Source: Minisyncoccota bacterium
GTDB lineage: Bacteria > Patescibacteriota > Minisyncoccia > Phycocordibacterales > UBA9973
Direction: 5' to 3'
DNA: 64,000 bases
NCBI GenBank assembly: GCA_041661005.1
Contig: JBAZVG010000001.1
Span: 196,917-260,916 of the forward strand
In this document: piece by piece, positions 3,402-61,280 of the stretch
Numbering within the stretch: position 1 is the first letter of the stretch
How the letters are laid out: each line of letters opens with the position of its first letter
Notes under the pieces: model-generated
What the model was told of the DNA's origin: nothing
Database searches by the model: none
Seen by the model: the letters and a program-made list of their open reading frames with translations, nothing else
Made by a program: the position numbers and the translations under genes

Positions 3402-4142
3402 ATGTCTAAATTTTACATTGTGGCGACGCCGATCGGGAATATGGGGGACATCACGCTTAGAGCTATCGAGACGCTTAAAAGCGTTGATTTGATATTGTGT
3501 GAAGATACGCGCGAGACAAAAAAAATTTTAGATAAATATGGAATAAATAAACCGACGATGAGCTATCCATCCGACGATGTAGTCGGAAAAGATAATAGAC
3601 AAAGTAAACTCGCAAAGATTCTTACTTTATTAGAAGAGGGAAAAAACTTAGCTTTAGTGTCAGATGCCGGCACGCCAACTATCTCAGACCCGGGTGCTAT
3701 GCTTGTTTCTAAGATTAAAGAAAAATTTAACCTCACCCCTTCGCCCCTCTCCTTGACAAGGAGAGGGGTTGGGGGAGAGGTGAGTGTTCAGGTGATTCCA
3801 ATTCCGGGCCCCTCGGCTGTCATCACTGCGCTTTCTGCTTCAGGACTGCCAACGCATGAATTTACTTTTCTTGGTTTTTTACCGCACAAAAAAGGTAGAG
3901 AGACTTTATTTAAAGAAATCGCTAGCGCAGAACGCACGATGGTTTTTTATGAATCTCCGCATAGAATTTTAAAAACTTTAGAGTCATTAATAAAATTTTC
4001 TCCAGAGAAGAAAGTTTGCATCGCGAGGGAGCTCACAAAAATTTACGAAGAATTTAAAACTGGAAGTCCTACTGAAGTTTTAGAATACTTAAATAAAAAT
4101 CCGATGAAACAAAAAGGGGAGTTTACGGTGATTGTGTCTTAA
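3402..4142 (+). CDS. rsmI: 16S rRNA (cytidine1402-2'-O)-methyltransferase
   Basis: N-terminus LYIVATPIGNMGDITLRA...LILCEDTR and the IPGPSAV motif. Carries an in-frame ~57-nt palindromic insertion (see repeat 3731-3786). Confidence 0.9.
   Translation: MSKFYIVATPIGNMGDITLRAIETLKSVDLILCEDTRETKKILDKYGINKPTMSYPSDDVVGKDNRQSKLAKILTLLEEGKNLALVSDAGTPTISDPGAMLVSKIKEKFNLTPSPLSLTRRGVGGEVSVQVIPIPGPSAVITALSASGLPTHEFTFLGFLPHKKGRETLFKEIASAERTMVFYESPHRILKTLESLIKFSPEKKVCIARELTKIYEEFKTGSPTEVLEYLNKNPMKQKGEFTVIVS
3731..3786 (+). repeat. In-frame G/C-rich hairpin insertion inside rsmI (CCCCTCTCC-TTGACAAG-GAGAGGGG core)
   Basis: Perfect 9-bp stem with 8-nt loop. It encodes an extra ~19 aa (NLTPSPLSLTRRGVGGEVS) between the conserved SDPG and PIPGPSA motifs. 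Related sequence occurs in purD at 61045-61085. Confidence 0.6.
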
Positions 4143-4192
4143 AATGATCGAGGGACGCACGGATGGCTCCGGTGCGTCCCTCTGACGATGCT

Positions 4193-4802: not shown

Positions 4803-4909
4803 CCTTTTATTTTAGCATAAATATGATACCCGGTAGTGAAACTTGGCAAAGTTTTTTAAACGTGCTTCGCGCATTGCCAAGTTCTACTACCGGGTGATAT
4901 ATTACCTAT

Positions 4910-5923: not shown

Positions 5924-6058
5924 GTTCTTCAAAAACAAAATAGCTACTTTTAAAAACCCGCATAAAATTCTGCTGAATTTTTGCTAAGACTTCGGCCCGT
6001 CGGCCTCCGTACGATTTTTAAAAGCACTATTTTATTTTTGAAGAATTGTTTAAACTAT

Positions 6059-6817
6059 ATGAAAATAAAAGAACATTTAGATAAAAATAATTTACATCAT
6101 GCTTATCTAGTAGAGGGCATACGTGAAGAGATTGTGTCGGAGATTTTTAATTTTTTGAAGGATTTAAACATTAAGACTTCCGGCAATCCTGATTTTTGCC
6201 ATATAACAATTGATAATTTTAAAATTGACGAGGCATTTGATCTGCGCGCCATGTCTTCAAATAAAAGCTTTGCCCTTGGCCATAGCCCTACGGGCGAGCC
6301 AGGCGAGGCTTCCTTTAAGAAAGTTTTCCTTGTTTGTGTGAACAGCTTTTCTTTAGATGCGCAGAATGTTTTGCTCAAAATGTTTGAAGAACCGATAGAG
6401 AACACGCATTTTTTTCTAGTTGTGCCAGATGTAAATGTTCTTTTGAAAACATTAGTTTCTAGATTTTATTTAATAAAAAATGAAAATTTAAATAATGAAA
6501 CAGAAGAAGCAGAGAAATTTATAAATATGTCTTTACAAAAGAGAATAGATTTTATAAAAGAATTGTTGTTAGAACCGGAGGAGAAAGATGAAGACGGGAA
6601 TGAAATTGTTCTTTTGGATTCATCTCGCTCAAAAGCACTGAAATTCTTGAATGCTCTGGAATTAACTCTGCATAAAAACCTAGTGTCAAGGGCGGGCTTT
6701 GACACTAGGTTTTTTGAGCAAATTTTCAAAGTCCGTGAATTTCTCCGTATGCCAGGTTCTTCCGCTAAAACTCTAATGGAGTCCGTGGCGTTGTTGATAC
6801 CGGAAAAAATATCTTAA
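6059..6817 (+). CDS. holB: DNA polymerase III delta' subunit-like (HolB), degenerate AAA+ fold
   Basis: HAYLVEG..., DNFKIDEAFDLR, NSFSLDAQNVLLKMFEEP and T.FFLVV match the delta' pattern (HAYLF ... AANALLKTLEEPP). The ORF extends to 5981 with a non-ATG start; 6059 is the first ATG in a good position. Confidence 0.55.
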   Translation: MKIKEHLDKNNLHHAYLVEGIREEIVSEIFNFLKDLNIKTSGNPDFCHITIDNFKIDEAFDLRAMSSNKSFALGHSPTGEPGEASFKKVFLVCVNSFSLDAQNVLLKMFEEPIENTHFFLVVPDVNVLLKTLVSRFYLIKNENLNNETEEAEKFINMSLQKRIDFIKELLLEPEEKDEDGNEIVLLDSSRSKALKFLNALELTLHKNLVSRAGFDTRFFEQIFKVREFLRMPGSSAKTLMESVALLIPEKIS

Positions 6818-12391: not shown

Positions 12392-13600
12392 TTGAAAAAT
12401 AATTTACCTCTTTCCTATATTGAAATTTCTAAAAAGAATTTGATTCACAATATCAAACAATTTAGGAATTTAATAAAAGCGGGAACTAAGATTTCTGTAG
12501 CCATAAAAGGCAATGCTTATGGCCATGGACAAAATATCGTAGCAAAAATTCTTGAGCCACACGTAGATTATTTTCAAGTAAATAACGTGGAAGAGCTTGA
12601 ATCATTGCGTAAAATAAGTCAGAAAAAAGCTTTTGTTTTAGGGTATGTGCAAAATTCGGATTTACCACGTGCTATACGATCAAATTGTATTTTGACTGTC
12701 TTCTCTCTCGGTCAATTAAAAGAAATAAACAAGATATCAAAGAAGCTTAAAAAAATACAAGAAGTTTGTGTCCCAGTTGATGCATATTTAGGGCGTGAAG
12801 GATTTTTATTTAGTGACTTGGGCGAGATTTTCGAAGAAATAAAAAAATCTGGATACGTAAAATTTACAAGTATCTATGCGCATTTTGCAAATATTGAAGA
12901 TGTGTCAAATTTTACTCATGCGCAAAAACAGATTAAGGAATATGAAAAAGCTTTAGAATTGGCGAAAATGTTCGGTTTTGAAAACCCGCCTAGACCCGTT
13001 TCGACGCAAGGCGAGCTCGGCGAGGCTGGCCCGCCTAGACTCGGCGAGGCTGGTTTGCAAACACATATATCTGCCACTTCTGGAATTTTGGTTTATGAAA
13101 AAGATAGTGGAATTAATTCAATCGTGCGATTGGGTATCGGCGCATACGGCATGTGGCCATCAGAACATTTAAAAAAAGTTTATGAAAATGAAAAATTCAA
13201 TCTGAAACCAGTGTTGTCATGGAAAACAAAGATCGCGCAAGTAAAAATCTTAGAAAAAGGGAATACCGTTGGTTATGGATTGACCTATAAAACAAATCAG
13301 AAAACAAAAATAGCAATTATCCCTCAAGGATATGCCGATGGTCTAGATCGTGGTCTTTCAAACAAGGGAGAGGTTTTGATCGGGGGCGCTCGATGTAAAA
13401 TCATAGGCAGGGTATCGATGAATATGTTTGCGGTTAATGTAAATCATTTGTCAGTTGTTAAAGTCGGCGACGAAGTTGTGATTATCGGAATTCAAAATAA
13501 AGAGAAAATTACGGCAGAGCAGGTGGCGAAAAAATTAGATACGATAAATTATGAAATTACCACGCGGATAAGTTCTTTATTGCCGAGAGTTATTACGTAG
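12392..13600 (+). CDS. alr: Alanine racemase
   Basis: PLP-lysine motif AIKGNAYGHG and the C-terminal beta domain. Carries in-frame 45-nt and 24-nt repeat copies (12985-13053). Confidence 0.85.
   Translation: MKNNLPLSYIEISKKNLIHNIKQFRNLIKAGTKISVAIKGNAYGHGQNIVAKILEPHVDYFQVNNVEELESLRKISQKKAFVLGYVQNSDLPRAIRSNCILTVFSLGQLKEINKISKKLKKIQEVCVPVDAYLGREGFLFSDLGEIFEEIKKSGYVKFTSIYAHFANIEDVSNFTHAQKQIKEYEKALELAKMFGFENPPRPVSTQGELGEAGPPRLGEAGLQTHISATSGILVYEKDSGINSIVRLGIGAYGMWPSEHLKKVYENEKFNLKPVLSWKTKIAQVKILEKGNTVGYGLTYKTNQKTKIAIIPQGYADGLDRGLSNKGEVLIGGARCKIIGRVSMNMFAVNVNHLSVVKVGDEVVIIGIQNKEKITAEQVAKKLDTINYEITTRISSLLPRVIT
12985..13053 (+). repeat. In-frame 45-nt palindromic element (12985-13029) plus adjacent 24-nt deletion derivative (13030-13053) inside alr
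   Basis: CCCGCCTAGACCCGTTTCGACGCAAGGCGAGCTCGGCGAGGCTGG followed by CCCGCCTAGACTCGGCGAGGCTGG. Translated as PRPVSTQGELGEAG then PPRLGEAG. Other copies lie at 14046, 29298 and 54860. Confidence 0.75.
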
Positions 13601-13965: not shown

Positions 13966-14883
13966 TTATTTGGTTAATAATTTCCGCTTTGTTTTTCGCT
14001 GTTGGTGAATTTTTGTCAGGCGAATTTTCTTAGAAGCCCGCCTAGACCCGCTTCGATGCGAAGCGAGCTCGGCGAGGCTGGCATCAAACCATTTTATTTC
14101 TTTATCGCGCTTAAACCATGTCATTTGACGTTTAGCGTATTTTAGAGTTTCAGTGACGACTTTTTCTGGCGTCGGTTTGTAGTATTCAAAACCCAATTCT
14201 TTCAGTCGTTTTTCTGACACACCATTCTTTTTTAACTTTTTAATTTCATTAAGTAAGCCATCTTTGAACATCTTTTTGACCCTTTTTTCTACTTTCTGTC
14301 TTAGTTTATCCTGCGGTAAATACAAGCCTATTTTTATAAATTTATACGGAGGAGACTTCTCCGTAATTTTTGGAACTTTACCGAGAGCTTTCACTATTTC
14401 AATTGCCCTGATTAATCTGATTTTATTTTTTGGGTCTATATTCTTTGCTCGCTCGGGGTCTATTCTTTTTAAATACTCAAATAATGCTATCGCTGATTTT
14501 GAGTATAGTTCTTTACGAAGCTTTTCATTTGGCGGAACTTCTGGGAAAATAATACCTTTAGTCATTGCATCAATGTAAAATCCCGTGCCTCCGCAAATTA
14601 TCGGAGTTTTACCTCGAGCGATTATTTCTTTTATTTTATCTTCAGCTAATTCTTTATATTGCGCTACAGTAAATTTTCTTTTAGGGTTCGCGATGTCTAG
14701 CAGATGATGGGGGACGCCTCGCATTTCTTTTCTTGTTATTTTTCCCGTGCCAATATCAAGGCCTTTGTAAACTTGTCGTGAATCAGCTGAAATTATTTCT
14801 CCATCTATTTTTTTAGCAATCTTTACGGCTAAATCACTTTTACCTGTAGCTGTTTGACCTAATATGATAATGATTGTGGGCAC
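13966..14883 (-). CDS. miaA: tRNA dimethylallyltransferase
   Basis: P-loop GQTATGKS, DSRQVYKGLDIGT(G)K. Likely GTG start at 14883 giving MPTIIIILGQTATGKS. The ORF track extends it to 15003 by reading through the intergenic repeat. The C-terminal tail contains an in-frame copy of the 45-nt element. Confidence 0.85.
   Translation of the reverse strand: MPTIIIILGQTATGKSDLAVKIAKKIDGEIISADSRQVYKGLDIGTGKITRKEMRGVPHHLLDIANPKRKFTVAQYKELAEDKIKEIIARGKTPIICGGTGFYIDAMTKGIIFPEVPPNEKLRKELYSKSAIALFEYLKRIDPERAKNIDPKNKIRLIRAIEIVKALGKVPKITEKSPPYKFIKIGLYLPQDKLRQKVEKRVKKMFKDGLLNEIKKLKKNGVSEKRLKELGFEYYKPTPEKVVTETLKYAKRQMTWFKRDKEIKWFDASLAELASHRSGSRRASKKIRLTKIHQQRKTKRKLLTK
14046..14090 (+). repeat. 45-nt palindromic element, copy within the miaA 3' region (read on the reverse strand as ASLAELASHRSGSRRA)
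   Basis: CCCGCCTAGACCCGCTTCGATGCGAAGCGAGCTCGGCGAGGCTGG, 45 nt, with internal hairpin CGCTTCG-ATG-CGAAGCG. Confidence 0.75.
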
Positions 14884-14907
14884 AGATTGAAAAACGAACT
14901 TTTTTTT

Positions 14908-14979
14908 GGTACGGATTTTTTGAAGCTTGAAAAATCCTGAAGTTCTCGGCTCGTCAGCCTCGAAACCCCGCAAAAAGTT
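14908..14979 (+). repeat. 72-bp intergenic repeat, copy 2 (in the miaA 5' leader / murA 3' flank)
   Basis: GGTACGGATTTTTTGAAGCTTGAAAAATCCTGAAGTTCTCGGCTCGTCAGCCTCGAAACCCCGCAAAAAGTTG. Confidence 0.65.
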
Positions 14980-15002
14980 GTTTTTTATTATTCGCCTCTG
15001 CA

Positions 15003-16538
15003 TTAATTTCCCTTGATTATTTTAATATCTGCGCCGATGGAATTCAATCGCTCGGCGATTTCTTCGTAACCACGATTTATCATATAAACGTTTCGTAGTA
15101 TTGAAGTGCCACTAGCTCCAAGCATTGAGATAAGTATTACCATTGATGGTCGTAAGGCCGGTGGGCAAACGACTTGAGCTCCCTTTAACGCTGTTCCGCC
15201 GTTGATATAGAGGCGATGTGGATCTGCGAGGGTAATATCTGCGCCTAGGCGGTTTAATTCAGTCAGATATATCGCGCGATTCTCATAAACCCAGTCATGG
15301 ATCATTGTTTGACCTTTGGCCTTTATGGCAATAGGCACAAAGAATGGCAGGTTGTCTATATTTATTCCGGGATAGGGATTGGAGTGTAATTTATCATAAA
15401 GAGCTTTTAGTTTGCTTGGGAAAATTTCTACATCTACTAATTTTGTTCGTCCATTAAAAGAATAATAAATTTTTGAAGCTTTGAATTTTAAATTCATTCT
15501 TTTTAGTTTTTCCAATTCTAAAGAAAGAAAGTCTATGGGGACGCGAGTGATGCTGAGTCTCGAGTCAGTGATAATTCCAGCAGAAATAAACATCATGGAT
15601 TCTATAGGGTCTTCACTGTTCCAATATTCTATATCTTTATTTATATTTGCTACGCCATGCACGGTCAGATTGGCAGTGCCGATACCTTCTATTTTTACAC
15701 CCAAAGCTTCAAGAAAAAAACAAACTTCTTGCACCATATAGTTTGCGCTGGCAAAGTTTATTTTTGTGGCGCCAGGTATAAGAGCAGAAGCCATCAAAAC
15801 ATTTTCACAGGCCGTGTCTCCAGATTCATACATTACTATTTCACTTGGTTTTAGTTTTCGTGAAGAGATTTCATAATTCTTTGCCGTAGTCTTTACTTTT
15901 ACCCCGAGTTTTTCTAGGGCGTAGATGTGGGCGGCTATTGTGCGTTTACCTAGATTGCATCCATGTGGATGGGGGAGAGAAAAGGTTGATAATTTATGAA
16001 TGAGTGGACCCATGAGCATTACGACTGAACGAGTTTTGACCGCTGACTCTATGTTTATATTTTCTAAATTAAATTTCTCTCCTGGTGTGATGGTTAAAGT
16101 ATTCTGGTTTAGCCATTTTATTGCGACCCCGATACTTTCGAGAATTTCAATGACCCGATACACTTCCTCGATTCGCGCTATGCCATGCAAGGTTGTTGTC
16201 CCCCTGTTTAAGAGCGAAGCGCAAAGAAGCCCGACCGAACCATTTTTAGAAAAATTAGTTTTGATAGTTCCACTTAATTTTTTCCCTCCATGCACTTCGA
16301 AATCGATCGAATCATTTATAGAAACTATTTGATGATCTAAAACATTGCTTATTTTTAAAAGTAATTCAGTTGTAAAATTTTGTTCGCCTTTTTCCATTCG
16401 GGGGATAGAACTTTGAGAAGTATTCAGCGCTTTAGCAAATTGCTCTTGAGTCATTCCGCGGTGTTCGCGCAATTCTTTGATAAAATAACCTATCTTTTGT
16501 TGTTCGGTCTGTACTGTTGATTTTATATTTTTTGTCAT
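15003..16538 (-). CDS. murA: UDP-N-acetylglucosamine 1-carboxyvinyltransferase (MurA) with an N-terminal HTH_XRE DNA-binding domain fusion
   Basis: N-terminal ~75 aa reads GYFIKELREHRGMTQEQFAKALNTSQSSIPRMEKGE (XRE HTH). The rest is an EPT fold with a GCNLGKR loop and ~420 aa MurA-like sequence. Confidence 0.8.
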   Translation of the reverse strand: MTKNIKSTVQTEQQKIGYFIKELREHRGMTQEQFAKALNTSQSSIPRMEKGEQNFTTELLLKISNVLDHQIVSINDSIDFEVHGGKKLSGTIKTNFSKNGSVGLLCASLLNRGTTTLHGIARIEEVYRVIEILESIGVAIKWLNQNTLTITPGEKFNLENINIESAVKTRSVVMLMGPLIHKLSTFSLPHPHGCNLGKRTIAAHIYALEKLGVKVKTTAKNYEISSRKLKPSEIVMYESGDTACENVLMASALIPGATKINFASANYMVQEVCFFLEALGVKIEGIGTANLTVHGVANINKDIEYWNSEDPIESMMFISAGIITDSRLSITRVPIDFLSLELEKLKRMNLKFKASKIYYSFNGRTKLVDVEIFPSKLKALYDKLHSNPYPGINIDNLPFFVPIAIKAKGQTMIHDWVYENRAIYLTELNRLGADITLADPHRLYINGGTALKGAQVVCPPALRPSMVILISMLGASGTSILRNVYMINRGYEEIAERLNSIGADIKIIKGN

Positions 16539-16794: not shown

Positions 16795-17814
16795 ATGAGA
16801 AAGATCCAGTCCCTTATCGTGGCAGTGGCACTCGCGTGCTTCACGGCCCTAACCTCCGCTAACGCGGCGATGTCTGTGCAGGCGTTCTTTTCACCGGGAG
16901 TGCCCACAGATTCAACCAACAACCTGTCGAGCCAGCAGAACAAAATGGCTTTTCTCGACGCTGGCAACCTCGTGGGCGGAGCCTACGAGACAAATCCGGT
17001 GGCGATGAATCTCCCGAAGGTGCTGAAGATCGGGGATGTGTTGCGTTTCCGGCCGGGCTTTCCTGGTTGGCTTGCAGTGCCGACTTCGTCGGGACCGGAT
17101 GCATATGGCGCTCGTCTCTTCTGCATGGTGAAGGTCACCAGCACGGAGGCGAATGTGAATCCACGCCGGGTTCGGGTTCGCACATGGACGCCTCTGAATG
17201 ACGGTGTCCTTTGGTCAACCAACTGGTTGGCCAGCGAGACCATCACCATGTCGTCAACCCTAACGGGCCGTAAGTATGGCCCTGATGGAGTTCGAGGTGG
17301 ATCGGATGATCAGCCGTTCAGTTCCGGAACCTCGGACCTGAACTTCAACGAACTCATCACGGTCGGTCCCAGGATATTCCTTGACGTCTTCAATCAAGAA
17401 GATTTAAGTCTTGCGCTCAACTACTGGGATGGCAAAAGGCCCATGGAGTTACACGTCGAGGTCACGGTTTACGCCGCAGACATGGTGACGGTGCTCGGAA
17501 GGAAGGAAATTGTCCTCACCGCGCGGCCGTATCTCTTGATCGACCGTGGTGGTCTCAACTCCGAGATTCGGTACGTTCGCATGGAGAGTGAACGGGCGAA
17601 AAACTACCAGCTAATGTCATCGCTGTGGCCTGGAGGCGGTTACTCTGACGTTCCAGCCGGAGGACTTCTGCATGATGGCAGTGTTTACACGAACACCAAT
17701 CTTGCCGATCGTCAGTTCTTCGGAGTCCGGGAGACGTCGGTCTCGGCAGCGGGGTTAAGGTCGGCAACGTCGGCTTCAAAACCTTCCAGTGGAGTCGAAA
17801 GCGGAAATGAGTAA
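16795..17814 (+). CDS. Secreted hypothetical protein (signal peptide), encoded in a GC-rich (~57%) block
   Basis: N-terminus MRKIQSLIVAVALACFTALTSANA. Codon usage and GC differ from the surrounding AT-rich genome. Confidence 0.6.
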   Translation: MRKIQSLIVAVALACFTALTSANAAMSVQAFFSPGVPTDSTNNLSSQQNKMAFLDAGNLVGGAYETNPVAMNLPKVLKIGDVLRFRPGFPGWLAVPTSSGPDAYGARLFCMVKVTSTEANVNPRRVRVRTWTPLNDGVLWSTNWLASETITMSSTLTGRKYGPDGVRGGSDDQPFSSGTSDLNFNELITVGPRIFLDVFNQEDLSLALNYWDGKRPMELHVEVTVYAADMVTVLGRKEIVLTARPYLLIDRGGLNSEIRYVRMESERAKNYQLMSSLWPGGGYSDVPAGGLLHDGSVYTNTNLADRQFFGVRETSVSAAGLRSATSASKPSSGVESGNE

Positions 17815-21212: not shown

Positions 21213-23465
21213 CTATATCTCAATCTTCTTTATTTTGTGGGGGTTATGCATGGGGCAAGATTTATTGGAGCAACGTTCTGGGATAGTTTTGGTGCCTTCC
21301 ATCATCAGACTGCCACATTCTTTACATATCGCGCCAGTTGGTTTTGCCTTGATCGCAAACTTGCATTTGGGATAGTTTGAACAAGAATAAAAAATACCAA
21401 ATCGTCCACGACGTTCACTGATATCTCCTGTTTTACAAAGGGGACACAACACGCCAGTTCTCTTTTTTGCTTCATCTGCTTCATCGCTTTTGATAAATTT
21501 ACATTTTGGATAACGTGAGCAAGAAATAAATGTGCCAGTGCCATCGCGTCTTTCTCTGACAACAAGTTTTCCACCACCAGATTTACCTTTTTTTTCACCG
21601 CATTCTGGACATATTTCTCCGGTTTCTGCTGGACCTTTTAATTCTGTGCCGTCGAGCATAAGGGCTCCATCACAATCAGGATATTTGGAACAAGAATAAA
21701 ATTTACCTGCGCGAGAAAGTTTTATTATCATTTCGGATCCGCATTTCGGGCATTTTATGTTTGAGGGCGCTGATCCCAAGTTTGTCGCTTTTTCCAATTT
21801 TTCTTTTGATTTTACTTCCTTTAGAAAAGGTCCGTAAAAATCTCTCAGAGTTTTTTCATATTCGCGTTCTCCTCTCGATATCTCGTCAAGCTCGTCTTCC
21901 ATTTCTGCTGTAAAACTATCTGAAATATAATTCATAAAATGTTTTTCCAAAAAATCTGAAACAACTTCACCGACATCAGTGGGGAATAATGTTTTTCCTT
22001 CTTTGTTCACATAACCTCTCTCTTCAATTGTTTTCATGATGGATGCATATGTGGACGGTCTGCCTATCCCTCTAGCTTCTAATTCTTTGACCAGTCCTGC
22101 TTCGCTGTATCTGTCGGGTGGCAGGGTGAATTTTTCTTCATTTACGAGATCAAGTAGTTTCAACTCTTCTTCTGCTTTGCACACTGGTAGTTCTACATCA
22201 TCGCCTCGAGCGTCGCTATCCACCTTGAGCCATCCAGGAAAAAGCAGACGGGAACCATTGATGGAAAAATCTGGCAAGTCCTCATGTCCTTTTATAACGG
22301 CTGAAATTTTAGTTTTCAATAATTTTGCGTCAGTCATCTGCGAGGATATGGCGCGCTCCCAGATCAATCTATACAATTTGTCTTGCTCATCAGTGCCTAC
22401 AATCATATTTGTTATGTGCGTTGGACGTATGGCCTCATGCGCTTCCTGGGCGTTTTTTGATTTTGTTTTGTAAATTCTAGCTTCAGCATATTCTTTTCCA
22501 TATTTATTTTGGATAAAAGAAATTATTTGCGTTTGCGCAGCTGCAGATAAGTTTGTGCTGTCGGTTCGCATATATGTGATATGTCCAGCCTCGTAAAGTT
22601 TCTGCGCTATTTGCATGGTGCGAGAAGGTGAATACCCGAGACGTGAACTCGCTGTTTGTTGCAATGTAGAAGTGGTAAAAGGCGCGCGGGGCGAACGTTT
22701 CTGTTCAGATTCCTTTACCCCACTAACAATCCATGTGCCGGCTTTACCCTCGGTCATTATTTTTTGTACTAATTTTTCATCTCGTGGTTCTTCTGAACAT
22801 TCTAGAGTAATTTTTTCCCCTCCTGCCTGAGGAGGGGTGCCCTTTAGGGCGGGGTGGTGGGAGGTTTCAAACAGTCCGAATATTTTCCAATATTTCTCTG
22901 GAACAAAGGCGCGGATTTCACGTTCACGTTCCATTACTATGCGAAGCGCAGGGGACTGCACGCGTCCGGCAGAAAGTCCGTATCGCACTTTTTTCCAAAT
23001 AAGTCCCGAAAGGTCATAGCCCACAAGACGGTCCAAGACTCGGCGCGCCTCTTGCGCCTTTCTTAATGCTGTGTCTATCTGGCGTGGATGTTGCAGGGCT
23101 TCTTCTACGGCTTCTTTAGTAATTTCATGAAAAGTTACTCGCTCAATGGGGGCTTTTACTTTTTTATCTTCTTTTAAAAGAGTTTCTATATGCCAAGCAA
23201 TGGCTTCTCCTTCGCGATCAGGGTCGGTCGCTAAAATTATTTCTTTCGCCTTTTCCGCCAATCCTTGCAATTCGTGCACAATTTTTTCTTTACCTTTAGA
23301 AATTTCATAATGCGGAATAAAACCTCCTTCGATATCAATTGCTATTTTATTTGATTTCGGTAAATCACGAATATGTCCGACAGATGCACGCACAGTAAAA
23401 GCGCCTTCCAAATATTTTTCAATCGTCTTTGCTTTTGATGGTGACTCAACAATTAATAATTTCAT
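21213..23465 (-). CDS. topA: DNA topoisomerase I
   Basis: TOPRIM N-terminus MKLLIVESPSKAKTI, active-site region, C-terminal C4 zinc ribbons; 750 aa. Confidence 0.9.
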   Translation of the reverse strand: MKLLIVESPSKAKTIEKYLEGAFTVRASVGHIRDLPKSNKIAIDIEGGFIPHYEISKGKEKIVHELQGLAEKAKEIILATDPDREGEAIAWHIETLLKEDKKVKAPIERVTFHEITKEAVEEALQHPRQIDTALRKAQEARRVLDRLVGYDLSGLIWKKVRYGLSAGRVQSPALRIVMEREREIRAFVPEKYWKIFGLFETSHHPALKGTPPQAGGEKITLECSEEPRDEKLVQKIMTEGKAGTWIVSGVKESEQKRSPRAPFTTSTLQQTASSRLGYSPSRTMQIAQKLYEAGHITYMRTDSTNLSAAAQTQIISFIQNKYGKEYAEARIYKTKSKNAQEAHEAIRPTHITNMIVGTDEQDKLYRLIWERAISSQMTDAKLLKTKISAVIKGHEDLPDFSINGSRLLFPGWLKVDSDARGDDVELPVCKAEEELKLLDLVNEEKFTLPPDRYSEAGLVKELEARGIGRPSTYASIMKTIEERGYVNKEGKTLFPTDVGEVVSDFLEKHFMNYISDSFTAEMEDELDEISRGEREYEKTLRDFYGPFLKEVKSKEKLEKATNLGSAPSNIKCPKCGSEMIIKLSRAGKFYSCSKYPDCDGALMLDGTELKGPAETGEICPECGEKKGKSGGGKLVVRERRDGTGTFISCSRYPKCKFIKSDEADEAKKRTGVLCPLCKTGDISERRGRFGIFYSCSNYPKCKFAIKAKPTGAICKECGSLMMEGTKTIPERCSNKSCPMHNPHKIKKIEI

Positions 23466-26837: not shown

Positions 26838-27959
26838 ATGCAAAATTTTTGGAAAAAATTAAAAAAGCCCGCCTTGCCTGACGGAAGTCGAGGCAGGCCA
26901 TTTTTCTGCCTTGCGCCGATGTCAGATGTCACTGATATCGCTTTTCGTCACATGTTGGCAAAATATGGCAAAAATAGGGAAAATAAAGATAGAGTTGTTT
27001 TTTGGACAGAGTTTGTGTCTGCTGATGGTTTGTGCAATAAATTTGCCAGACAAAAGTTGGCACACATGCTGGTCTTCTCGGAATCTGAAAGGCCAATTGT
27101 GGCGCAAATTTTTGGCGCTAATCCGGAAAATATGAAGAAAGCTTGCCAATATGTCGCAAATCTTGGCTTTGATGGGATAGATATAAATATGGGTTGCCCA
27201 GATAAATCAGTCGTGAGTCAGGGGGCTGGCGCAGGGTTGATTAAAAATCCAGAACTTGCGCGACAGATTATCAAAGCAGTTCATGCGGGTATAAAATCAG
27301 CTGGACGAGACATACCTGTGTCAGTGAAAACTAGAATTGGTTTTAATAAAGAAGAAATTGATCGCTGGATACCAGAATTATTAAAAGAAGATATTTCTGC
27401 TTTGACGATTCACTTGCGCACAGCCAAAGAGCTTTCACTCGTTCCAGCCAATTGGGAACATATCAAAAAAATAAAGAAACTTATAGAAAAAAGTGGGAAA
27501 AATATTTTGCTGATAGGCAACGGTGATGTGAAAGATTTAAAAGATGCAGAAGAAAAAGCCTCGAAATATGGCTGTGATGGGGTGATGATAGGTCGCGGAG
27601 TTTTTGGCAATCCGTGGTTTTTTGATTCCACTAGAAAAATGGAAAACGGTAGTGAATTTTATGTCCCCGAGGGTCCCGCTTTGTGTCCCTTAATGCGCCC
27701 AAAGAAGGGCGCAGGGGCAGAAAATTCACTACCGTTTTCCATTATACGAGAAAAACTTCAAGTCCTCATAGAGCATACGCAAATTTTTGATAAAGAACTT
27801 GCGATACCTAAACATAAAAATTTTGATGTAATGAAAAAACATTTCAAGGCTTATGTGAATGGTTTTGATGGCGCCAAAGAACTTCGAATAAAATTAATGG
27901 AAACTGAAAATTCGAAACAAGTTGAAAAGATAATAAATGATTTTTTGGAAACAAACTGA
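26838..27959 (+). CDS. dus: tRNA-dihydrouridine synthase
   Basis: FMN-binding TIM barrel motifs LAPMSDVTD.AFR and GFDGIDINMGCP. Carries an in-frame ~106-nt inverted-repeat insertion (27638-27743). Confidence 0.85.
   Translation: MQNFWKKLKKPALPDGSRGRPFFCLAPMSDVTDIAFRHMLAKYGKNRENKDRVVFWTEFVSADGLCNKFARQKLAHMLVFSESERPIVAQIFGANPENMKKACQYVANLGFDGIDINMGCPDKSVVSQGAGAGLIKNPELARQIIKAVHAGIKSAGRDIPVSVKTRIGFNKEEIDRWIPELLKEDISALTIHLRTAKELSLVPANWEHIKKIKKLIEKSGKNILLIGNGDVKDLKDAEEKASKYGCDGVMIGRGVFGNPWFFDSTRKMENGSEFYVPEGPALCPLMRPKKGAGAENSLPFSIIREKLQVLIEHTQIFDKELAIPKHKNFDVMKKHFKAYVNGFDGAKELRIKLMETENSKQVEKIINDFLETN
27638..27743 (+). repeat. In-frame ~106-bp palindromic element inside dus: 23-bp perfect terminal inverted repeats AATGGAAAACGGTAGTGAATTTT / AAAATTCACTACCGTTTTCCATT
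   Basis: Read from the sequence. Its GC-rich palindromic core GCGCCCAAAGAAGGGCGC is translated in frame as ..MENGSEFYVPEGPALCPLMRPKKGAGAENSLPFSI.. Confidence 0.7.
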
Positions 27960-30695: not shown

Positions 30696-30766
30696 TGGGG
30701 GATCGTCTAATGGTAGGACACATCCCTTTGAAGGATGTTATTTTGGTTCGAGTCCAAGTCCCCCAG
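30696..30766 (+). tRNA. tRNA-Gln (anticodon UUG)
   Basis: Acceptor TGGGGGA/TCCCCCA, anticodon stem-loop CATCC-CUUUGAA-GGATG, T-loop TTCGAGT. GC content jumps immediately at its 3' end. Confidence 0.8.
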
Positions 30767-32446
30767 CACGTTTGGACTCACAGAGGCGGATGCCTCATTT
30801 GGCCCTTTCGACAGGCCAGTATTTTCAGGTTCGATTGGCTTGTTTTCGGTTTCTGTATCCGACATGGACTTTTCGAGGATGAAGAACGGTTCGCGGGCTT
30901 CAATGCTCAGCTTTTTGGCCTTCAAAGTTAGGTTCGATCCGAATGTCACCAGCATCTCCTCTTTGGTCTTCGCATCGCCGTTCGCGAACCGCTCCCGAGC
31001 GGTCGAGGCAAATTCAAACGTGTCTTCGGACAGTTTTAACTGCTGCTCAATCCGCTTCCCGGCATCCTGAAGCAACTCCTCCAAAGCGGACTTTTCTTTG
31101 AGTAGCTTCACCCTCCTCTGACCGTATTCCTCATCCGATAGCTGGCTTCCGTCTGCGTTGCTGGACGAGGTTTTCAGACCCACCAGATTGTCGATTTCCT
31201 GCAAGCACGCTCGATATGCCTTCTGCTGGGCTTCGATGATGGCGCTTTGCTCCATGCTCTCCTTCGCGTGCAATTCATGGAGGAATTTGATGCAGTAGGC
31301 TTTGAATTTCTCGGAAATATGGATGCGGCCAAGATATTCACGAATCTGCCTTTCGAGATCAAATGCACTCACACTCTTCTGCGGACAAGATGGACGTTTG
31401 CTTTTTGAACAATGGTAATAGGTGTAGTGAAGGAAGAGCGGGTTCGTCATTTCTTCGATCGATGTCTGGCAGCGCGGGCAGGCGTTTCGCTTGCGGTAGG
31501 CAAACTTGAACCGGCATTGGCCACACATGACCTGGTGCTTTTCCTCAGCGGTCACCATCCGGTCACACTCGCCACAACGGATGAGGCCGGTGAAAGCAAA
31601 TTCAAAGTGCGATTGAGGCCGCGGACTGCCGTTGCGGCCAAGCAAAGTCTGCACCCGGTCATATTCCGCTTCGGTGATCATCGGCTCGTGCTTTCCCTGA
31701 TACCACTTGTTGCTGCCGTTTGGATATTCAAACCAGCCGTAATAGAAGGGCTTGGTGAAGATCTGGTAGATGGCGCTTCGGCAAAGAGGCTTGCCACCCA
31801 TCTTGCGCGTTGGCCTCGTGCGGAAGGCCCACTCTTTGTTGGCGATTTCCAGAATTCTCGGCGGGGTGTAGAGGCCGGTCAGCATCAAATCCCACATGCG
31901 ACGGAGCAGAGGAAAACGCTCCGGATCTTTGACCAGAGTGTTTTCGCCCGTCAGCTTGTCGGTGTGGTTCAAGTAGCCTGCCGGGGCGACGCCGGGATAC
32001 CAGCCGTTTTCGGTCTTGGTCTTGAGTCCCCGTTTTACGTTTTTGCTCAGGTCGTCCACGTATTTCTGCGCCATGCCGAATTCGATATACATGAGGATGA
32101 TATTGTCATCTTCACGGGCGTAAGTCTGGGCCGGGGTCATGATCCTGATGCCATGCTGTTTGATGCCCCAGATGATGGAACCTCCGTCCACCGGATTACG
32201 CGCCAGACGATCAAGTTTCCAGCAGATGACGCCGGCAGCTTCACCACGGTAAAGGCGTTGCATCATCTGATTGAACACCGGGCGCCCCGGATCTTTTGCG
32301 GATTTCGACTCGGTCAATACTTCGACAACTTGTAAATTTAACTTGGCCGCCAACTGCTCCAATTCGCGGGTTTGGGATTCAATGGAAAGAATCTGCCGGT
32401 CTTCGGCTTCGGATGATTTGCGACAATAGATGAAGTATCCTGACAT
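30707..32446 (-). CDS. Large serine recombinase (integrase of a tRNA-Gln-associated island)
   Basis: N-terminal resolvase catalytic domain IYCRKSSEAEDRQ..SIESQ ... LDRLARN, a recombinase domain, a zinc ribbon CGECDR...CGQC...CPRC, and a coiled coil. Its 3' end overlaps the tRNA-Gln 3' half on the opposite strand. Confidence 0.8.
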   Translation of the reverse strand: MSGYFIYCRKSSEAEDRQILSIESQTRELEQLAAKLNLQVVEVLTESKSAKDPGRPVFNQMMQRLYRGEAAGVICWKLDRLARNPVDGGSIIWGIKQHGIRIMTPAQTYAREDDNIILMYIEFGMAQKYVDDLSKNVKRGLKTKTENGWYPGVAPAGYLNHTDKLTGENTLVKDPERFPLLRRMWDLMLTGLYTPPRILEIANKEWAFRTRPTRKMGGKPLCRSAIYQIFTKPFYYGWFEYPNGSNKWYQGKHEPMITEAEYDRVQTLLGRNGSPRPQSHFEFAFTGLIRCGECDRMVTAEEKHQVMCGQCRFKFAYRKRNACPRCQTSIEEMTNPLFLHYTYYHCSKSKRPSCPQKSVSAFDLERQIREYLGRIHISEKFKAYCIKFLHELHAKESMEQSAIIEAQQKAYRACLQEIDNLVGLKTSSSNADGSQLSDEEYGQRRVKLLKEKSALEELLQDAGKRIEQQLKLSEDTFEFASTARERFANGDAKTKEEMLVTFGSNLTLKAKKLSIEAREPFFILEKSMSDTETENKPIEPENTGLSKGPNEASASVSPNVLGDLDSNQNNILQRDVSYH

Positions 32447-32532
32447 GGAAATGGGTGATTAAAATAAGGGAGGCGGGCGACCTTGGAGCCTGCATCCCTA
32501 TGCTAACGTACCGGCAAAATACGTCAATGAGG

Positions 32533-32796
32533 TCACTGGCTAAGACGGTTCTCGTCGGGCTCCTTGTCTGAACCCGGCTGCTTCAGAATCCCGAAGAAGC
32601 GAAGTAGACGCACAGCGATTTCTTGGATCTCGTCGTCGCTAAGACGCTTACCGAACTCCTCTTGGTAAATGGCTCTGAACTCCTCGATAGCTTCACGACT
32701 TAGTTGTTGTGGTGTTTTCATATCGTCCACTTTACTTGCTGTTACTCTTCGGCAAAGGACGGAAGAATTGCCACATACGGCATGTCCGCATTGCAC
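32533..32796 (-). CDS. Small helical hypothetical protein upstream of the recombinase (possible directionality or regulatory factor)
   Basis: ORF only; the likely true start is an internal Met (MKTPQQLSREAIEEF...). Confidence 0.3.
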   Translation of the reverse strand: MQCGHAVCGNSSVLCRRVTASKVDDMKTPQQLSREAIEEFRAIYQEEFGKRLSDDEIQEIAVRLLRFFGILKQPGSDKEPDENRLSQ

Positions 32797-33024
32797 TTGG
32801 AACTAGAATTCGGGGCACCTCCCTTGACGAATAGCGAGTTTCGTGCTTAAATACGAAAACCTTCCACCGAGTTCAAGAAGCTCGGTGTTTAATAGGTTTG
32901 CCATTTCTGGCAAAGGTTCCCGCCTTTGGTATTTTTACCATTGAGATATGGTGGTGTCGTGGAACTCGCATTGGGTTCCTCCGCTTCCACACTGATGACT
33001 TCACTTCAACTTCCAAACTATTTG

Positions 33025-33366: not shown

Positions 33367-33471
33367 TCATTGTAATCGAAATAACTAACCACATAGGTGG
33401 AAGAAGCGGCCCATCATGACCGAAAAATAAACCACGTAAAAACGAAATTATCTGCTGGATTGTTTGCTTTT

Positions 33472-34962: not shown

Positions 34963-35287
34963 AGATAATTGTTAATTATCCGTGATGTGGGCGAGATGTC
35001 TTGTTCGGAAATGTGTGTTTCGTATCCGACATTGCGGTAGTCAGTGCAGGAGACCAAGGAAGATGTTGCTAGTCTGCTGGATTCCTCTCTCTTGGTTCTT
35101 CGCAAGACAGTGTTCTGTCACAAAAGTGATCGAATTACAGTGGGCTTTTGTTTTCGGAGCGAGGCTTTGATAACGGATTTCTGGTGCATACACATACCAC
35201 AGCCTAATGTTTTTGAATTACTGGTCTATGAGTTATGATTGTCCTCCTGCGAGATTTATAGAGAAATAGTTTGCTGGATGAGGGCGT

Positions 35288-59975: not shown

Positions 59976-61280
59976 GTGGGAAAAATTAACCAAATGAAAC
60001 AAGATAAACGAAAAATTTTAATAATTGGCGGCGGAGGAAGAGAACATGCAATAGGATGGAAAATTACCCAGTCTGAAAGGTCAGTGGACCTGTATTTTGC
60101 TCCTGGAAACGCGGGAACAGCTCAAATTGGAACAAATTTGCTTATCATGGCAACGAATGTATCAGGGCTCTTAAATTTCGCAAAGGAAGAGAAAATAGAT
60201 CTAATATTGGCTTTGCCTGACGATCCTCTTGCTCTCGGTATAGTTGATGAATTTCAAAAAGCGGGTATGCGAATTTGGGGTCCAACAAAGAGAGCGAGTG
60301 AGCTTGAGTGGTCTAAAGCATATGCTAAAGATTTAATGAAAAGACATAAAATCCCAACTGCGAAACACGAAGTTTTTACTAACTTTGAAAAAGCAAAAAC
60401 ATATATTGAAAAAGGGTCATTACCTATTGTGATCAAAGCAAGTGGGCTGGCGCTCGGGAAAGGCGTGACAGTCGCGCAAACGAAAGAGGAAGCCGTCGAA
60501 GCGCTTCATAAAATATTGGTAGATAAAATTTTTGGAAATGCCGGTAATGAAGTTGTGATTGAAGAATATCTATCCGGTATTGAAATTTCAATTCACGCAA
60601 TTTCTGATGGAAAATCATGGAAAATTTTTCCATCATCGCAAGATCACAAACGCATATTTGACGGAAATGTGGGTCCGAACACTGGCGGAATGGGAGTTAT
60701 TGCGCCACTGCCTTTTGTAGATGATAAACTTATGTTGCAAATTGAAAAAGAAATAATTAAACCCACCATAGATGGAATGAGAGAAGAGGGAAGACCGTTT
60801 GTTGGCATTTTGTATCCAGGAATAATGCTTACCAACGAAGGTCCGAAGGTATTTGAATTTAACGCGCGTTTTGGCGATCCAGAAACACAAGTCTATATGC
60901 GATTGCTTGATACGGATATTCTCGATATTATTGACGCCAGTATTGATGGTAAAATTTCTAACTTAGACATCCAGTGGAAAAAAAATAAATATGCCTGCAA
61001 TATTGCGCTGGCTTCAGCCGGTTATCCGGGAAATTATGAGAAGGGGAACCCCATCCTCCTTGAGGAGGGGGGAGGGGGTGGTGACATCATAATCTTTCAC
61101 GCCGGTACAAAAATAGAAAACAATAAACTTGTCACCAACGGCGGGCGAGTTCTGGGAGTCAGTGCCGTAGGTGATACTTTAAAAGAAGCGCTTAAGAAAG
61201 CATATAAAGCAATAGATAAAATTTCTTTTGCGGGGATGCAATATAGAAAAGATATCGGCAAAATTGCTCTTAAATTGTAA
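59976..61280 (+). CDS. purD: Phosphoribosylamine--glycine ligase
   Basis: ILIIGGGGREHAIGWKI N-terminus, ATP-grasp fold, C-terminal domain. Confidence 0.9.
   Translation: MGKINQMKQDKRKILIIGGGGREHAIGWKITQSERSVDLYFAPGNAGTAQIGTNLLIMATNVSGLLNFAKEEKIDLILALPDDPLALGIVDEFQKAGMRIWGPTKRASELEWSKAYAKDLMKRHKIPTAKHEVFTNFEKAKTYIEKGSLPIVIKASGLALGKGVTVAQTKEEAVEALHKILVDKIFGNAGNEVVIEEYLSGIEISIHAISDGKSWKIFPSSQDHKRIFDGNVGPNTGGMGVIAPLPFVDDKLMLQIEKEIIKPTIDGMREEGRPFVGILYPGIMLTNEGPKVFEFNARFGDPETQVYMRLLDTDILDIIDASIDGKISNLDIQWKKNKYACNIALASAGYPGNYEKGNPILLEEGGGGGDIIIFHAGTKIENNKLVTNGGRVLGVSAVGDTLKEALKKAYKAIDKISFAGMQYRKDIGKIALKL
61045..61085 (+). repeat. G-rich hairpin segment in purD (CCTCC-TTGA-GGAGG GGGGAGGGGGTGGTGA) related to the rsmI insertion
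   Basis: Shares the CTCCTTGA..GGAG.GGGG..GGGGGAG.GGTGA pattern with 3731-3786 and is translated LLEEGGGGGD. It may be partly native linker. Confidence 0.4.

What the first reader, a model, noticed from the sequence alone, without database searches (positions are those of the whole stretch)
3731..3786. Second in-frame hairpin family: a G-rich stem-loop inserted in rsmI, with a related segment in purD (61045-61085)
rsmI has about 19 extra residues (NLTPSPLSLTRRGVGGEVS) between the universally conserved SDPG and P(L/I)PGPSA motifs, where orthologs have only ~14 residues. The extra residues are encoded by CCTCACCCCTTCGCCCCTCTCC-TTGACAAG-GAGAGGGGTTGGGGGAGAGGTGAG, which has a perfect 9-bp stem. purD has a similar CCTCC-TTGA-GGAGGGGGGAGGGGGTGGTGA encoding EEGGGGGD. 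These G-runs are anomalous in a ~35% GC genome. This is a second, distinct family of translatable palindromic insertions.
Basis: partly seen in the sequence, partly recalled or inferred. Interest (0 to 1): 0.65.

Follow-up and report, generated by a model that had tools for sequence, protein, structure and literature searches.

The report
Translated mobile hairpin inserted in rsmI
A 52-57-base G+C-rich hairpin repeat, also found in cyanobacteria, Ignavibacteria and about ten other phyla, has landed in frame in a surface loop of the rRNA methyltransferase RsmI of a tiny-genome Paceibacteria (CPR) bacterium, and in related bacteria that same loop carries many other unrelated hairpin repeats.

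Summary
Window 3730-3784 (+) is a compound hairpin: a 12-bp perfect inner stem plus outer arms ACCTCACCCC/GGGGAGAGGT (RNA MFE -40.6 kcal/mol, z = -6), the most stable in the 64 kb. It adds 18 codons to rsmI. These residues have no counterpart in E. coli RsmI or in many 76-84%-identical orthologs. The AlphaFold model shows them as a low-confidence loop.

It belongs to a dispersed hairpin family. The exact core with the same arms occurs in Nostocales, Ignavibacteria, Bacteroidota, Chloroflexi, Armatimonadota, Bathyarchaeia and several CPR groups. It is mostly intergenic there, but lies in long ORFs in 14 of 20 CPR copies.

I found a further related copy in topA (a 12-codon insertion present in only 2 of 121 close orthologs). 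The purD segment is related, but it is a same-length replacement or remnant, not extra residues, and its hairpin is weak.

The rsmI loop is a hot spot. Among 76 orthologs, 30 carry a perfect stem of at least 8 bp there, drawn from at least 10 unrelated hairpin sequences, several of which recur elsewhere.

Best reading: a REP/RPE-like selfish palindromic element tolerated in a permissive loop. No target-site duplication, no canonical G-quadruplex and no Rfam family were found. The mobilising enzyme is unknown.

The parts
3402..4142 (+). rsmI (16S rRNA C1402 2'-O-methyltransferase), the host gene, 246 aa
   Evidence: ORF. 100% identical to P0001, named RsmI, Pfam PF00590. Aligns end to end with E. 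coli RsmI 5HW4 except for the insert.
3731..3784 (+). The 54 nt (18 codons, LTPSPLSLTRRGVGGEVS) that are extra relative to empty alleles
   Evidence: Codon-level comparison of filled and empty alleles. Protein alignments. Residues 108-125 are unmatched in 5HW4. Residues 113-125 have pLDDT below 50 and lie in coil between helix 97-108 and strand 129-134.
3730..3739 (+). Left outer arm ACCTCACCCC
   Evidence: Conserved across phyla. Position -1 relative to CCTCACCCC is A in 63 of 68 complete copies.
3740..3743 (+). Spacer TTCG, which matches the loop of a small extra hairpin present in fuller copies (GCC-TTCG-GC in L204; GCCTTTGGC in L218)
3744..3768 (+). Core hairpin CCCCTCTCCTTG-A-CAAGGAGAGGGG (12-bp perfect stem)
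   Evidence: Exact pattern CCCCTCTCCTTNNNAAGGAGAGGGG found in 120 or more stretches of GTDB genomes.
3772..3781 (+). Right outer arm GGGGAGAGGT (a variant of the consensus GGGGTGAGGT; one A.A mismatch with the left arm)
   Evidence: The same variant arm occurs in Ignavibacteria copies L142, L161 and L162.
22817..22864 (-). Related G-rich two-hairpin element in topA. On the coding strand it reads CCTCCCACCACCCC-GCCCTAAAGGGC-A-CCCCTCCTCAGGCAGGAGGGG. The 12 inserted codons (PALKGTPPQAGG) occupy + strand 22818-22853.
   Evidence: 118 of 120 close TopA orthologs lack the 12 residues; the window and one 87%-identical relative have them. The layout matches the left arm + small hairpin + core of the Bacteroidota/cyanobacterial copies.
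61047..61084 (+). purD segment AACCCCATCCTCCTTGAGGAGGGGGGAGGGGGTGGTGA (NPILLEEGGGGGD): a divergent or remnant G-rich element replacing the native loop, with no net extra length
   Evidence: In L203 the purD insertion contains a near-identical segment followed by a topA-like element. In L204 purD carries a canonical family member at the same site.
59976..61280 (+). purD (phosphoribosylamine-glycine ligase), host gene of the remnant
   Evidence: P0121 is 100% identical and named purD.
21213..23465 (-). topA (DNA topoisomerase I), host gene of the third copy
   Evidence: Pfam PF01131/PF01751/PF01396 in orthologs.

Best explanation
The rsmI hairpin is a copy of a very small, non-autonomous, REP/RPE-like palindromic mobile element. 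Its layout is 10-nt terminal arms ACCTCACCCC/GGGGTGAGGT enclosing an 11-12-bp G+C-rich stem-loop and, in fuller copies, a second small hairpin.

It entered the turn between the helix that follows the SDPG motif and the strand that precedes PGPSA. This surface loop of RsmI tolerates extra residues. Because the element is polypyrimidine/polypurine, it has almost no stop codons (4 of 6 frames are open in this copy). It is therefore simply translated, giving 18 extra, probably disordered residues.

Shown:
- the insertion itself;
- membership of a dispersed family that spans phyla;
- a recent rare insertion of a relative in topA;
- absence of a target-site duplication;
- nucleotide-level conservation of the stems.

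Inferred:
- the element is selfish or neutral at this site rather than functional;
- the concentration of different hairpins at this loop reflects mainly tolerance of the protein (survivorship);
- mobilisation works on single-stranded hairpin DNA by a trans-acting HUH/Y1-type enzyme, as for REPs and IS200/IS605. No such enzyme was looked for successfully.
For: Insertion:
- Presence/absence among orthologs that are 76-92% identical.
- The insert is unmatched in E. coli RsmI.
- It is a low-confidence loop in the model.

Family and mobility:
- The exact core with conserved arms occurs in 148 copies from about 10 phyla.
- Other CPR genes carry it in all three reading frames (PLSLxRRG, PSPxxGEG, PLLxKERG). 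14 of 20 CPR copies lie in long ORFs, against 20 of 128 elsewhere.
- A canonical copy sits in a 651-aa ORF (L014) and in purD (L204).
- The topA relative is present in only 2 of 121 close orthologs.
- Near-identical 50-52-nt copies occur in Ignavibacteria.

Permissive-loop reading:
- The left junction of the various hairpins ranges over about 5 codons.
- All 81 orthologs stay in frame without stops.
- Other hairpin families at the site also have copies elsewhere.

Other points:
- No TSD.
- Intragenic in-frame REPs and RPEs are a documented phenomenon (PMC3733652; PMC10969869).
Against: - Copy number is low. There is 1 canonical copy in this 64 kb, and 9 in 844 kb of Paceibacteria DNA, 6 of them at the two sites used to fetch the DNA. 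Active transposition within these genomes is therefore not demonstrated.
- No transposase was identified. The only recombinase in the window is a large serine recombinase of an integrated island.
- 30 of 76 orthologs have a hairpin at exactly this loop and almost none elsewhere in the gene. Element stems are invariant (13 of 13 codons identical) while only 49-58% of same-amino-acid codons are identical in the flanks. Both facts are also what selection for a structure at this site would give.
- The RsmI tree is too weak to count independent gains.
Confidence: 0.6

Rival explanations
1. A hairpin at this position of the rsmI mRNA (or DNA) is itself selected, whatever its sequence. Possible roles are a processing or stability element, or a translational pause between the two halves of the fold. 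Mobile hairpins are merely the raw material that fills this need.
For: - Unrelated hairpins occupy the same loop in many orthologs. There are 36 perfect hairpins of at least 8 bp at the site, against a handful elsewhere in the gene (sequences).
- Even short alleles carry 20-26-nt perfect palindromes.
- Stems are invariant while flanking synonymous sites are about half changed.
- The three one-sided stem substitutions are all C-to-U opposite G, which keeps pairing only in the sense RNA or top strand.
- The right arm contains a Shine-Dalgarno-like AAGGAG (seen directly in the sequence).
Against: - Truly empty alleles are common and occur among close relatives (for example L011, L019, L034, L039; P0019, P0021 and P0024 at 84% identity).
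- The same elements sit in other genes and in intergenic DNA.
- No compensatory double changes were seen.
- In purD the hairpin has decayed while the G-run persists.
- No Rfam family and no terminator signature.
Confidence: 0.2
2. The palindrome arose in place through fold-back or template-switch replication errors, or through inversion between short inverted repeats, rather than by arrival of a pre-existing element.
For: - In several short alleles one arm is the native coding sequence. In ATCTACGCTATAGCGTAGAT, GTAGAT encodes the native V-D of the strand.
- L017 has the inner part of the element inverted relative to asymmetric outer arms, a flip/flop form.
- Arms tend to stay symmetric.
Against: For this element the 52 nt are unrelated to the flanking rsmI sequence. 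They are nearly identical to copies in other genes, other genomes and other phyla. In-place generation cannot produce that.
Confidence: 0.07
3. The extra residues are an adaptive, lineage-specific protein loop, for example an Arg/Gly-rich contact to 16S rRNA. On this view the DNA palindrome is incidental.
For: The peptide PSPLSLxRRGVGGEV is conserved in about 29 of 120 orthologs, and it is basic and Gly-rich.
Against: - The conservation is at the nucleotide level, beyond what the peptide requires.
- The variable residue is the one encoded by the loop.
- The same DNA is read in three different frames in other proteins.
- The inverted form gives an unrelated peptide at the same site (L017).
- The segment is modelled as disordered.
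Confidence: 0.05
4. The G-runs act through G-quadruplex formation.
For: There are runs of 4-6 G in all three copies. Two-tetrad motifs are possible, and topA has four G3+ tracts if a 9-nt loop is allowed.
Against: No G3+ x4 motif with loops of 7 nt or fewer exists in the whole window on either strand. In rsmI the G-rich arm is fully engaged in a -40 kcal/mol hairpin.
Confidence: 0.03

Closest known systems
Rickettsia palindromic elements (RPE; Ogata et al. 2000, 2002, as summarised in PMC10969869 and PMC3733652)
   Same: Palindromic repeats in a reduced genome. They are inserted in frame in unrelated housekeeping genes, translated, located in tolerated surface regions, and have no known transposase.
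   Different: RPEs are about 100-150 bp and are reported from Rickettsia. This element is about 50-57 nt (up to about 110 with extra hairpins), G+C-rich in an A+T-rich CPR genome, low in copy number, and shared across many phyla. Sequence relatedness to RPE families was not tested.
Intragenic REPs of the GTAG/CGTC super-families (Di Nocera et al. 2013, PMC3733652), thought to be mobilised by RAYT tyrosine (HUH) transposases
   Same: Short G+C-rich imperfect palindromes that sometimes lie entirely inside ORFs and encode 20-30 residues. They have no target-site duplication. Some other hairpins at the same rsmI site do carry these tags (GTAG in L031/L079, CGTC in L033/L037).
   Different: The G-rich element has neither a GTAG nor a CGTC tag. 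It has a nested two- or three-hairpin layout with 10-nt outer arms. It is not abundant in the genome. No RAYT was found or searched for successfully.
Small dispersed repeats (SDR) of heterocystous cyanobacteria (Elhai et al. 2008, Genome Research; recalled from memory, the paper is not held in the library)
   Same: Tiny hairpin-forming mobile repeats, often nested within one another and within larger elements. Most copies of the present core are in Nostocales, some nested in larger inverted repeats.
   Different: SDRs were described as 21-27 nt and essentially confined to one cyanobacterial subgroup. Whether any SDR equals this core could not be checked.
G+C clusters of yeast mitochondrial DNA, including the optional in-frame cluster of VAR1 (from memory)
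   Same: G+C-rich palindromes in an A+T-rich genome. They are optional and in frame in a protein gene, with presence/absence polymorphism.
   Different: An organellar system, with unrelated sequence, spreading by gene conversion in crosses.
Coding palindromes in Nematomorpha mitochondrial genes (PMC6649704)
   Same: Perfect inverted repeats inside protein-coding sequence.
   Different: According to the abstract shown, both arms there encode conserved protein regions and the repeats reach 284 bp. Here the whole hairpin is extra sequence.

Membership tests
In-frame protein-coding palindromic repeats (RPE-like, functional class) | Palindromic or hairpin-forming repeat unit | tested here: met
   12-bp perfect stem plus outer arms; MFE -40.6 kcal/mol, z -6.
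In-frame protein-coding palindromic repeats (RPE-like, functional class) | Inserted within a conserved ORF, in frame, absent from orthologs | tested here: met
   18 codons absent from empty alleles and from E. coli RsmI. In topA, 12 codons are absent from 118 of 120 orthologs.
In-frame protein-coding palindromic repeats (RPE-like, functional class) | Several copies dispersed in different genes | tested here: met
   Copies in rsmI, topA, the purD remnant (window), a 651-aa ORF (L014), purD (L204) and other CPR ORFs. Copy number per genome is low.
RPE families of Rickettsia (sequence families RPE-1 to RPE-10) | Sequence homology to an RPE consensus; length about 100-150 bp | tested here: not met
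   Length is 52-57 nt.
GTAG/CGTC-tagged REPs (Di Nocera 2013) | GTAG or CGTC tetranucleotide at one end of the stem-loop | tested here: not met
   The element starts with ACCTCACCCC and ends with GGGG(T/A)GAGGT. No such tag is present.
GTAG/CGTC-tagged REPs (Di Nocera 2013) | High copy number in the genome and an associated RAYT/tyrosine transposase gene | not tested
   Only 64 kb of the 813-kb genome was available. 9 canonical copies in 844 kb of related DNA. No systematic transposase search was possible.
Classical MITE (DDE transposase derived) | Terminal inverted repeats | tested here: met
   10-nt arms ACCTCACCCC/GGGGTGAGGT.
Classical MITE (DDE transposase derived) | Target-site duplication flanking the element | tested here: not met
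   Direct repeats of 2-5 nt at three boundary definitions are at chance level in 68 complete copies.
Curated structured RNA family (Rfam 15) | Score at or above a family's gathering threshold | tested here: not met
   Only 3 tRNAs in the window. E-value mode gives only generic miRNA-like hairpin noise far below threshold. Nothing in 10 other loci that carry the element.
Intrinsic terminator | G+C-rich stem-loop followed by a T-run | tested here: not met
   No terminator-like call at the hairpin. The downstream sequence is GTGTTCAGGTGATTCC.
G-quadruplex motif | Four G-tracts of 3 or more G with loops of 1-7 nt | tested here: not met
   None in the window on either strand.
Cyanobacterial SDR elements (Elhai 2008) | Sequence identity to SDR1-8 consensus | not testable with these tools

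The most novel reading that the evidence does not exclude
Paceibacteria (CPR) genomes are colonised by many families of ultra-small, translatable hairpin elements that repeatedly land in the same few protein loops. The RsmI helix-strand turn holds at least 10 unrelated hairpins; purD and a roughly 280-aa gene have similar hot spots.

One of these families is a 50-nt, T/Y-shaped G-rich element with 10-nt arms that is shared almost unchanged by bacteria of about 10 phyla and by Bathyarchaeia. That would mean inter-phylum transfer of one of the smallest known mobile elements, by a still unknown hairpin-recognising mechanism. It might be linked to DNA uptake by episymbiotic CPR cells from neighbours such as Ignavibacteria.
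Probability: 0.3. Interest if true: 0.8.

Novelty: new variant of a known kind. Interest (0 to 1): 0.62.

Why it matters
- In-frame palindromic repeats have so far been regarded as a curiosity of Rickettsia and a few REP-rich proteobacteria. Finding them in the ultra-small genomes of the Candidate Phyla Radiation shows that selfish hairpin DNA can persist where intergenic space is almost absent, by hiding in protein loops.
- The same core is shared across phyla.
- The rsmI loop gives a natural series of alleles: empty, filled with different hairpins, flipped and decayed. This series makes several questions directly testable. How do such elements move? Do mRNA hairpins inside genes matter? How do proteins acquire new loops?
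- Practically, these insertions inflate and fragment protein alignments and can mislead annotation and phylogenies of CPR genomes.

Tried and rejected
- Rfam at gathering and at E-value thresholds gave nothing beyond tRNAs and hairpin noise.
- Literature searches for CPR/Patescibacteria coding palindromes, and for the sequence strings themselves, found no description. Elhai 2008 could not be read.
- G-quadruplex: no canonical motif.
- Terminator: none.
- Target-site duplication: none.
- Covariation: stems are almost invariant, so there are no double compensatory changes to count. Adding the L003 variant misaligned and was uninformative.
- A single-gene NJ tree with Fitch parsimony gave 21 changes against 29 for shuffles. 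This is too weak to count gains.
- A covariance-model census was abandoned because MAFFT left the right arm ragged. A regex census of arm pairs was used instead.
- Pfam on the GC-rich islands of the window found a serine recombinase and a C5 methylase, but no IS200/IS605- or RAYT-type enzyme.
- In viral contigs, the element in L207 lies in an intergenic spacer. It was not pursued further.

Full report
**1. What is in the window**

The window is 38.5% G+C. Its RsmI, PurD and TopA are identical or closest to proteins of Candidatus Paceibacterota/Nomurabacteria, and the RsmI match sits on an 813-kb contig.

At 3730-3784 (+), inside rsmI (3402-4142), lies ACCTCACCCC-TTCG-CCCCTCTCCTTG-A-CAAGGAGAGGGG-TTG-GGGGAGAGGT-GAG. 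The outer arms pair imperfectly. As RNA the structure has MFE -40.6 kcal/mol, against -23.9 +/- 2.8 for shuffles. It is the most stable 60-nt window of the whole 64 kb.

Neither Rfam nor the terminator scan recognises it. No canonical G-quadruplex motif exists in the window.

**2. It is an insertion, and it is translated**

- Among 120 RsmI proteins that are 76-100% identical, and 81 orthologous DNA loci, the stretch between SDPG and PxPGxxA ranges from 28-29 residues to 45.
- Codon alignment shows AAA TTT AA(T/C) followed directly by G.. GT. CA. in empty alleles. In the window, 54 extra nucleotides sit in between.
- E. coli RsmI (5HW4) aligns on both sides and leaves window residues 108-125 unmatched, between the helix ...HLVRTCRE and the strand IRVVPLPG.
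- An AlphaFold2 model places residues 113-125 in a coil with pLDDT below 50, between helix 97-108 and strand 129-134.
- All 81 orthologs, whatever they carry at this site, stay in frame without stops.

**3. It belongs to a dispersed family that crosses phyla**

Hits include:
- many Nostocales cyanobacteria;
- Ignavibacteria/Melioribacteraceae, Bacteroidota, Chthonomonadaceae and Dehalococcoidia;
- Leptospirales, Desulfobacterales, Fibrobacteres and a gammaproteobacterium;
- Bathyarchaeia;
- CPR groups: Nomurabacteria, Falkowbacteria, Uhrbacteria and Saccharibacteria.

The flanks are conserved as well. In 68 complete copies the core is enclosed by CCTCACCCC and GGGGTGAGG. An A precedes the left arm in 63 of 68 and a T follows the right arm in 63 of 68. 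The spacers are either 2-4 nt or hold an extra small hairpin such as GCCCTATCGGGC or TGTCCGGAGGACG. Half forms (one arm plus the core) are as common as complete forms (78 against 68).

The simple two-stem form of the window, with the variant arm GGGGAGAGGT, is almost identical in Ignavibacteria (L142, L161 four times, L162).

No target-site duplication is detectable. Nine viral contigs also carry the core.

**4. Coding context**

Of 20 CPR copies of the exact core, 14 lie inside long ORFs. Of 128 copies from other phyla, only 20 do. The same DNA is read as PLSLxRRG, PSPxxGEG or PLLxKERG depending on frame. The window copy is open in 4 of 6 frames.

In 844 kb of Paceibacteria DNA that was fetched through genes rather than through the pattern, there are 9 canonical copies. 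Seven are coding: five in rsmI, one in purD and one in a 651-aa ORF. The family is therefore low in copy number in these genomes.

**5. The other two copies in the window**

*topA (21213-23465, minus strand).* The coding strand carries CCTCCCACCACCCC-GCCCTAAAGGGC-A-CCCCTCCTCAGGCAGGAGGGG at 22817-22864. This is the left arm + small hairpin + core layout of the fuller family members. Among 120 close orthologs (75-87% identical), 118 have a 35-residue segment here. Only the window and one other sequence have 12 more residues, PALKGTPPQAGG. This is the cleanest sign of a recent insertion in this lineage.

- The segment NPILLEEGGGGGD has no extra length: 32 residues against a mode of 33.
- The hairpin is weak (z -2.1).
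- In orthologs L201 and L202 the left arm is mutated, while the G-run GAGGAGGGGGGAGGGGGTGGTGA is unchanged.
- The segment is still related to the family. In L203 the same purD site holds a near-identical segment followed by a topA-like element. In L204 it holds a canonical ACCTCACCCC...GGAGGTGAGG element. Several other orthologs have 5-30 extra residues of the same G-rich type.

I read the window's purD segment as a decayed or partly deleted copy that replaced the native loop.

**6. The rsmI loop is a hot spot for unrelated hairpins**

At the same turn, other orthologs carry quite different stem-loops:
- TCCAGCAAGG..CCTTGCTGGA;
- GGTCGGACCTT..AAGGTCCGACC;
- GTAGTCGGAGTACC..GGTACTCCGACTAC (GTAG-tagged);
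- CGTCAAAGACGGTCTTTGACA.. (CGTC-tagged);
- GCTAGGCAAGACCTAGC;
- TCTGCTATCGCAGA;
- short perfect palindromes such as ATCTACGCTATAGCGTAGAT;
- tandem pairs of elements.

Of 76 complete genes, 30 have a perfect stem of at least 8 bp at this site (36 hairpins in all). Everywhere else in the gene there are 18 hairpins, 11 of them one conserved small hairpin, TCCGACGATGTCGTCGGA, about 30 codons upstream.

Several of these families recur elsewhere in the sampled DNA. The L031 type occurs three times within 3 kb. The L022 type occurs in L025 and L059. Overall, 159 perfect hairpins (stem of 10 bp or more) were found in 808 kb, against 8 in shuffles, and 87 of them lie inside long ORFs.

The left junction of the inserts varies over about five codons. 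That fits independent hits filtered by what the protein tolerates better than it fits a single precise target.

The distribution of the G-rich type on an RsmI tree is patchy (21 parsimony changes; shuffles give a mean of 29 and a minimum of 22). A single 230-residue tree is weak evidence, however.

**7. Variation of the rsmI copy**

- WIN, L078, L001, L005, L215 and L217 share the junctions and differ mainly in the 3-nt loop.
- L216 and L218 have an additional small hairpin in the left spacer. The window's TTCG spacer equals the loop of that hairpin (GCC-TTCG-GC in L204), which suggests decay from a three-part form.
- L017 has the inner part inverted relative to the asymmetric arms, giving an unrelated peptide, PNPSPYQGEGRRGEV.
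- In four orthologs, all 13 stem codons are identical in all six pairs. In the 3' flank only 49-58% of codons for the same amino acid are identical.
- On six orthologous copies, 99.2% of cells pair. There are no double compensatory changes. Three one-sided changes are all C-to-U opposite G, and one change breaks a pair.

So the nucleotide sequence, not just the peptide, is held constant. The data cannot say whether this comes from selection on a structure, from homogenisation among copies, or from recent spread.

**8. Interpretation**

The best-supported reading (about 0.6) is a REP/RPE-like selfish palindromic element sitting in a permissive loop and translated because it lacks stops.

Three features resemble substrates of HUH/Y1 enzymes (REP/RAYT, IS200/IS605): the lack of a TSD, the hairpin-within-hairpin layout, and the flip/flop forms. 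This step is inference only. No such enzyme was found in the window, where the only recombinase is a serine recombinase of an integrated island.

The main rival (about 0.2) is that a hairpin at this place in the mRNA is itself useful. The site's occupancy and the invariant stems fit this. Common empty alleles in close relatives, the same elements in other genes and in spacers, and the decayed purD hairpin speak against it.

In-place palindrome generation may explain some short alleles whose arm is native sequence. It cannot explain an element shared with other phyla. An adaptive peptide loop and a G-quadruplex role are poorly supported.

**9. Relation to what is known**

In-frame palindromic repeats are documented for Rickettsia RPEs and for intragenic GTAG/CGTC REPs (PMC10969869, PMC3733652). 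Functionally this is the same kind of thing.

It fails the defining tests for several families:
- RPE: length does not match;
- tagged REPs: no GTAG or CGTC tag;
- classical MITEs: no TSD;
- any Rfam family: no match.

Identity with cyanobacterial SDR elements could not be checked. My literature searches found no description of coding hairpin repeats in CPR bacteria, of this cross-phylum core, or of a multi-family hot spot in one protein loop. Those searches cover open-access text only.

I therefore rate it a new variant of a known kind, with moderate to high interest.

Noticed in passing
window 12979-13068, 14028-14091, 54852-54915 (also perhaps 6253-6312 and 26867-26919): Another GC-rich hairpin family (CCCGCCTAGACCCGCTTCGATGCGAGGCGAGCTCGGCGAGGCTGG...) lies inside long ORFs 12392-13600 (+), 13966-15003 (-) and 52366-55335 (+).
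   Followed up: no
window 6674-6714 in ORF 5981-6817; L003 13574, L031 13014, L028 5945, L039 11534, L059 15324: A second hairpin hot spot. The same position of a roughly 250-280-aa gene ('..LHxK..[hairpin]..FD(I/V)..F..') carries different perfect hairpins in different genomes, including CGTC/TGTCAAAGAC-type ones.
   Followed up: partly
window 3570-3587 (rsmI): A small hairpin TCCGACGATGTAGTCGGA encodes SDDVVG. It is conserved as TCCGACGATGTCGTCGGA in 11 orthologs and lies in a 6-residue segment absent from E. coli RsmI. Residues 61-66 have pLDDT below 50.
   Followed up: partly
window 30696-37600: A GC-rich island (44-49% GC against 38%) starts at a tRNA gene (30696-30766) and encodes a large serine recombinase (30710-32446, minus strand). 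It is probably an integrated mobile element. A second GC-rich block at 16.8-17.8 kb (ORF 16795-17814) has no Pfam hit.
   Followed up: partly
window 38643-39647 (-): A C-5 cytosine DNA methyltransferase (PF00145, E = 4e-97) lies next to the island.
   Followed up: no
window 4149-4181 and 61290-61316: GC-rich hairpins lie just after the stop codons of rsmI (GAGGGACGCAC..GTGCGTCCCTC) and purD (GAGCCGTCCC..GGGACGGCTC). Both contain GGGACG/CGTCCC and neither has a clear T-run.
   Followed up: no
window 4833-4890: An intergenic long hairpin begins with GTAG (GTAGTGAAACTTGGCAA...TTGCCAAGTTCTACTAC). It may be a GTAG-tagged REP-like element.
   Followed up: no
L207 5475, L211 9198, L214 4488, L213 241 (viral contigs): In four viral contigs the 'left arm + core' half element is followed by the same 40-nt sequence, (A/T)TTTC(T/C)A(T/C)TTTAAACAATCTT(C/T)AAA(T/A)TTCAACCCTTCGGA. 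This suggests a larger conserved unit in these phages. No Rfam hit.
   Followed up: partly
L084, L086, L113, L146, L159, L194 (cyanobacteria): In Nostocales the G-rich element is often nested inside a larger inverted repeat (..GAGTGCAATACAC.. / ..GTGTATTGGACTC..), as if it were carried within a MITE.
   Followed up: no
L142 1463-1510 and L156 2825-2872 (Ignavibacteriaceae, Melioribacter): The element lies within a long open frame (554 and 960 codons), 63 codons before its end, in what looks like the same gene in both genomes. In-frame copies may therefore not be limited to CPR.
   Followed up: no
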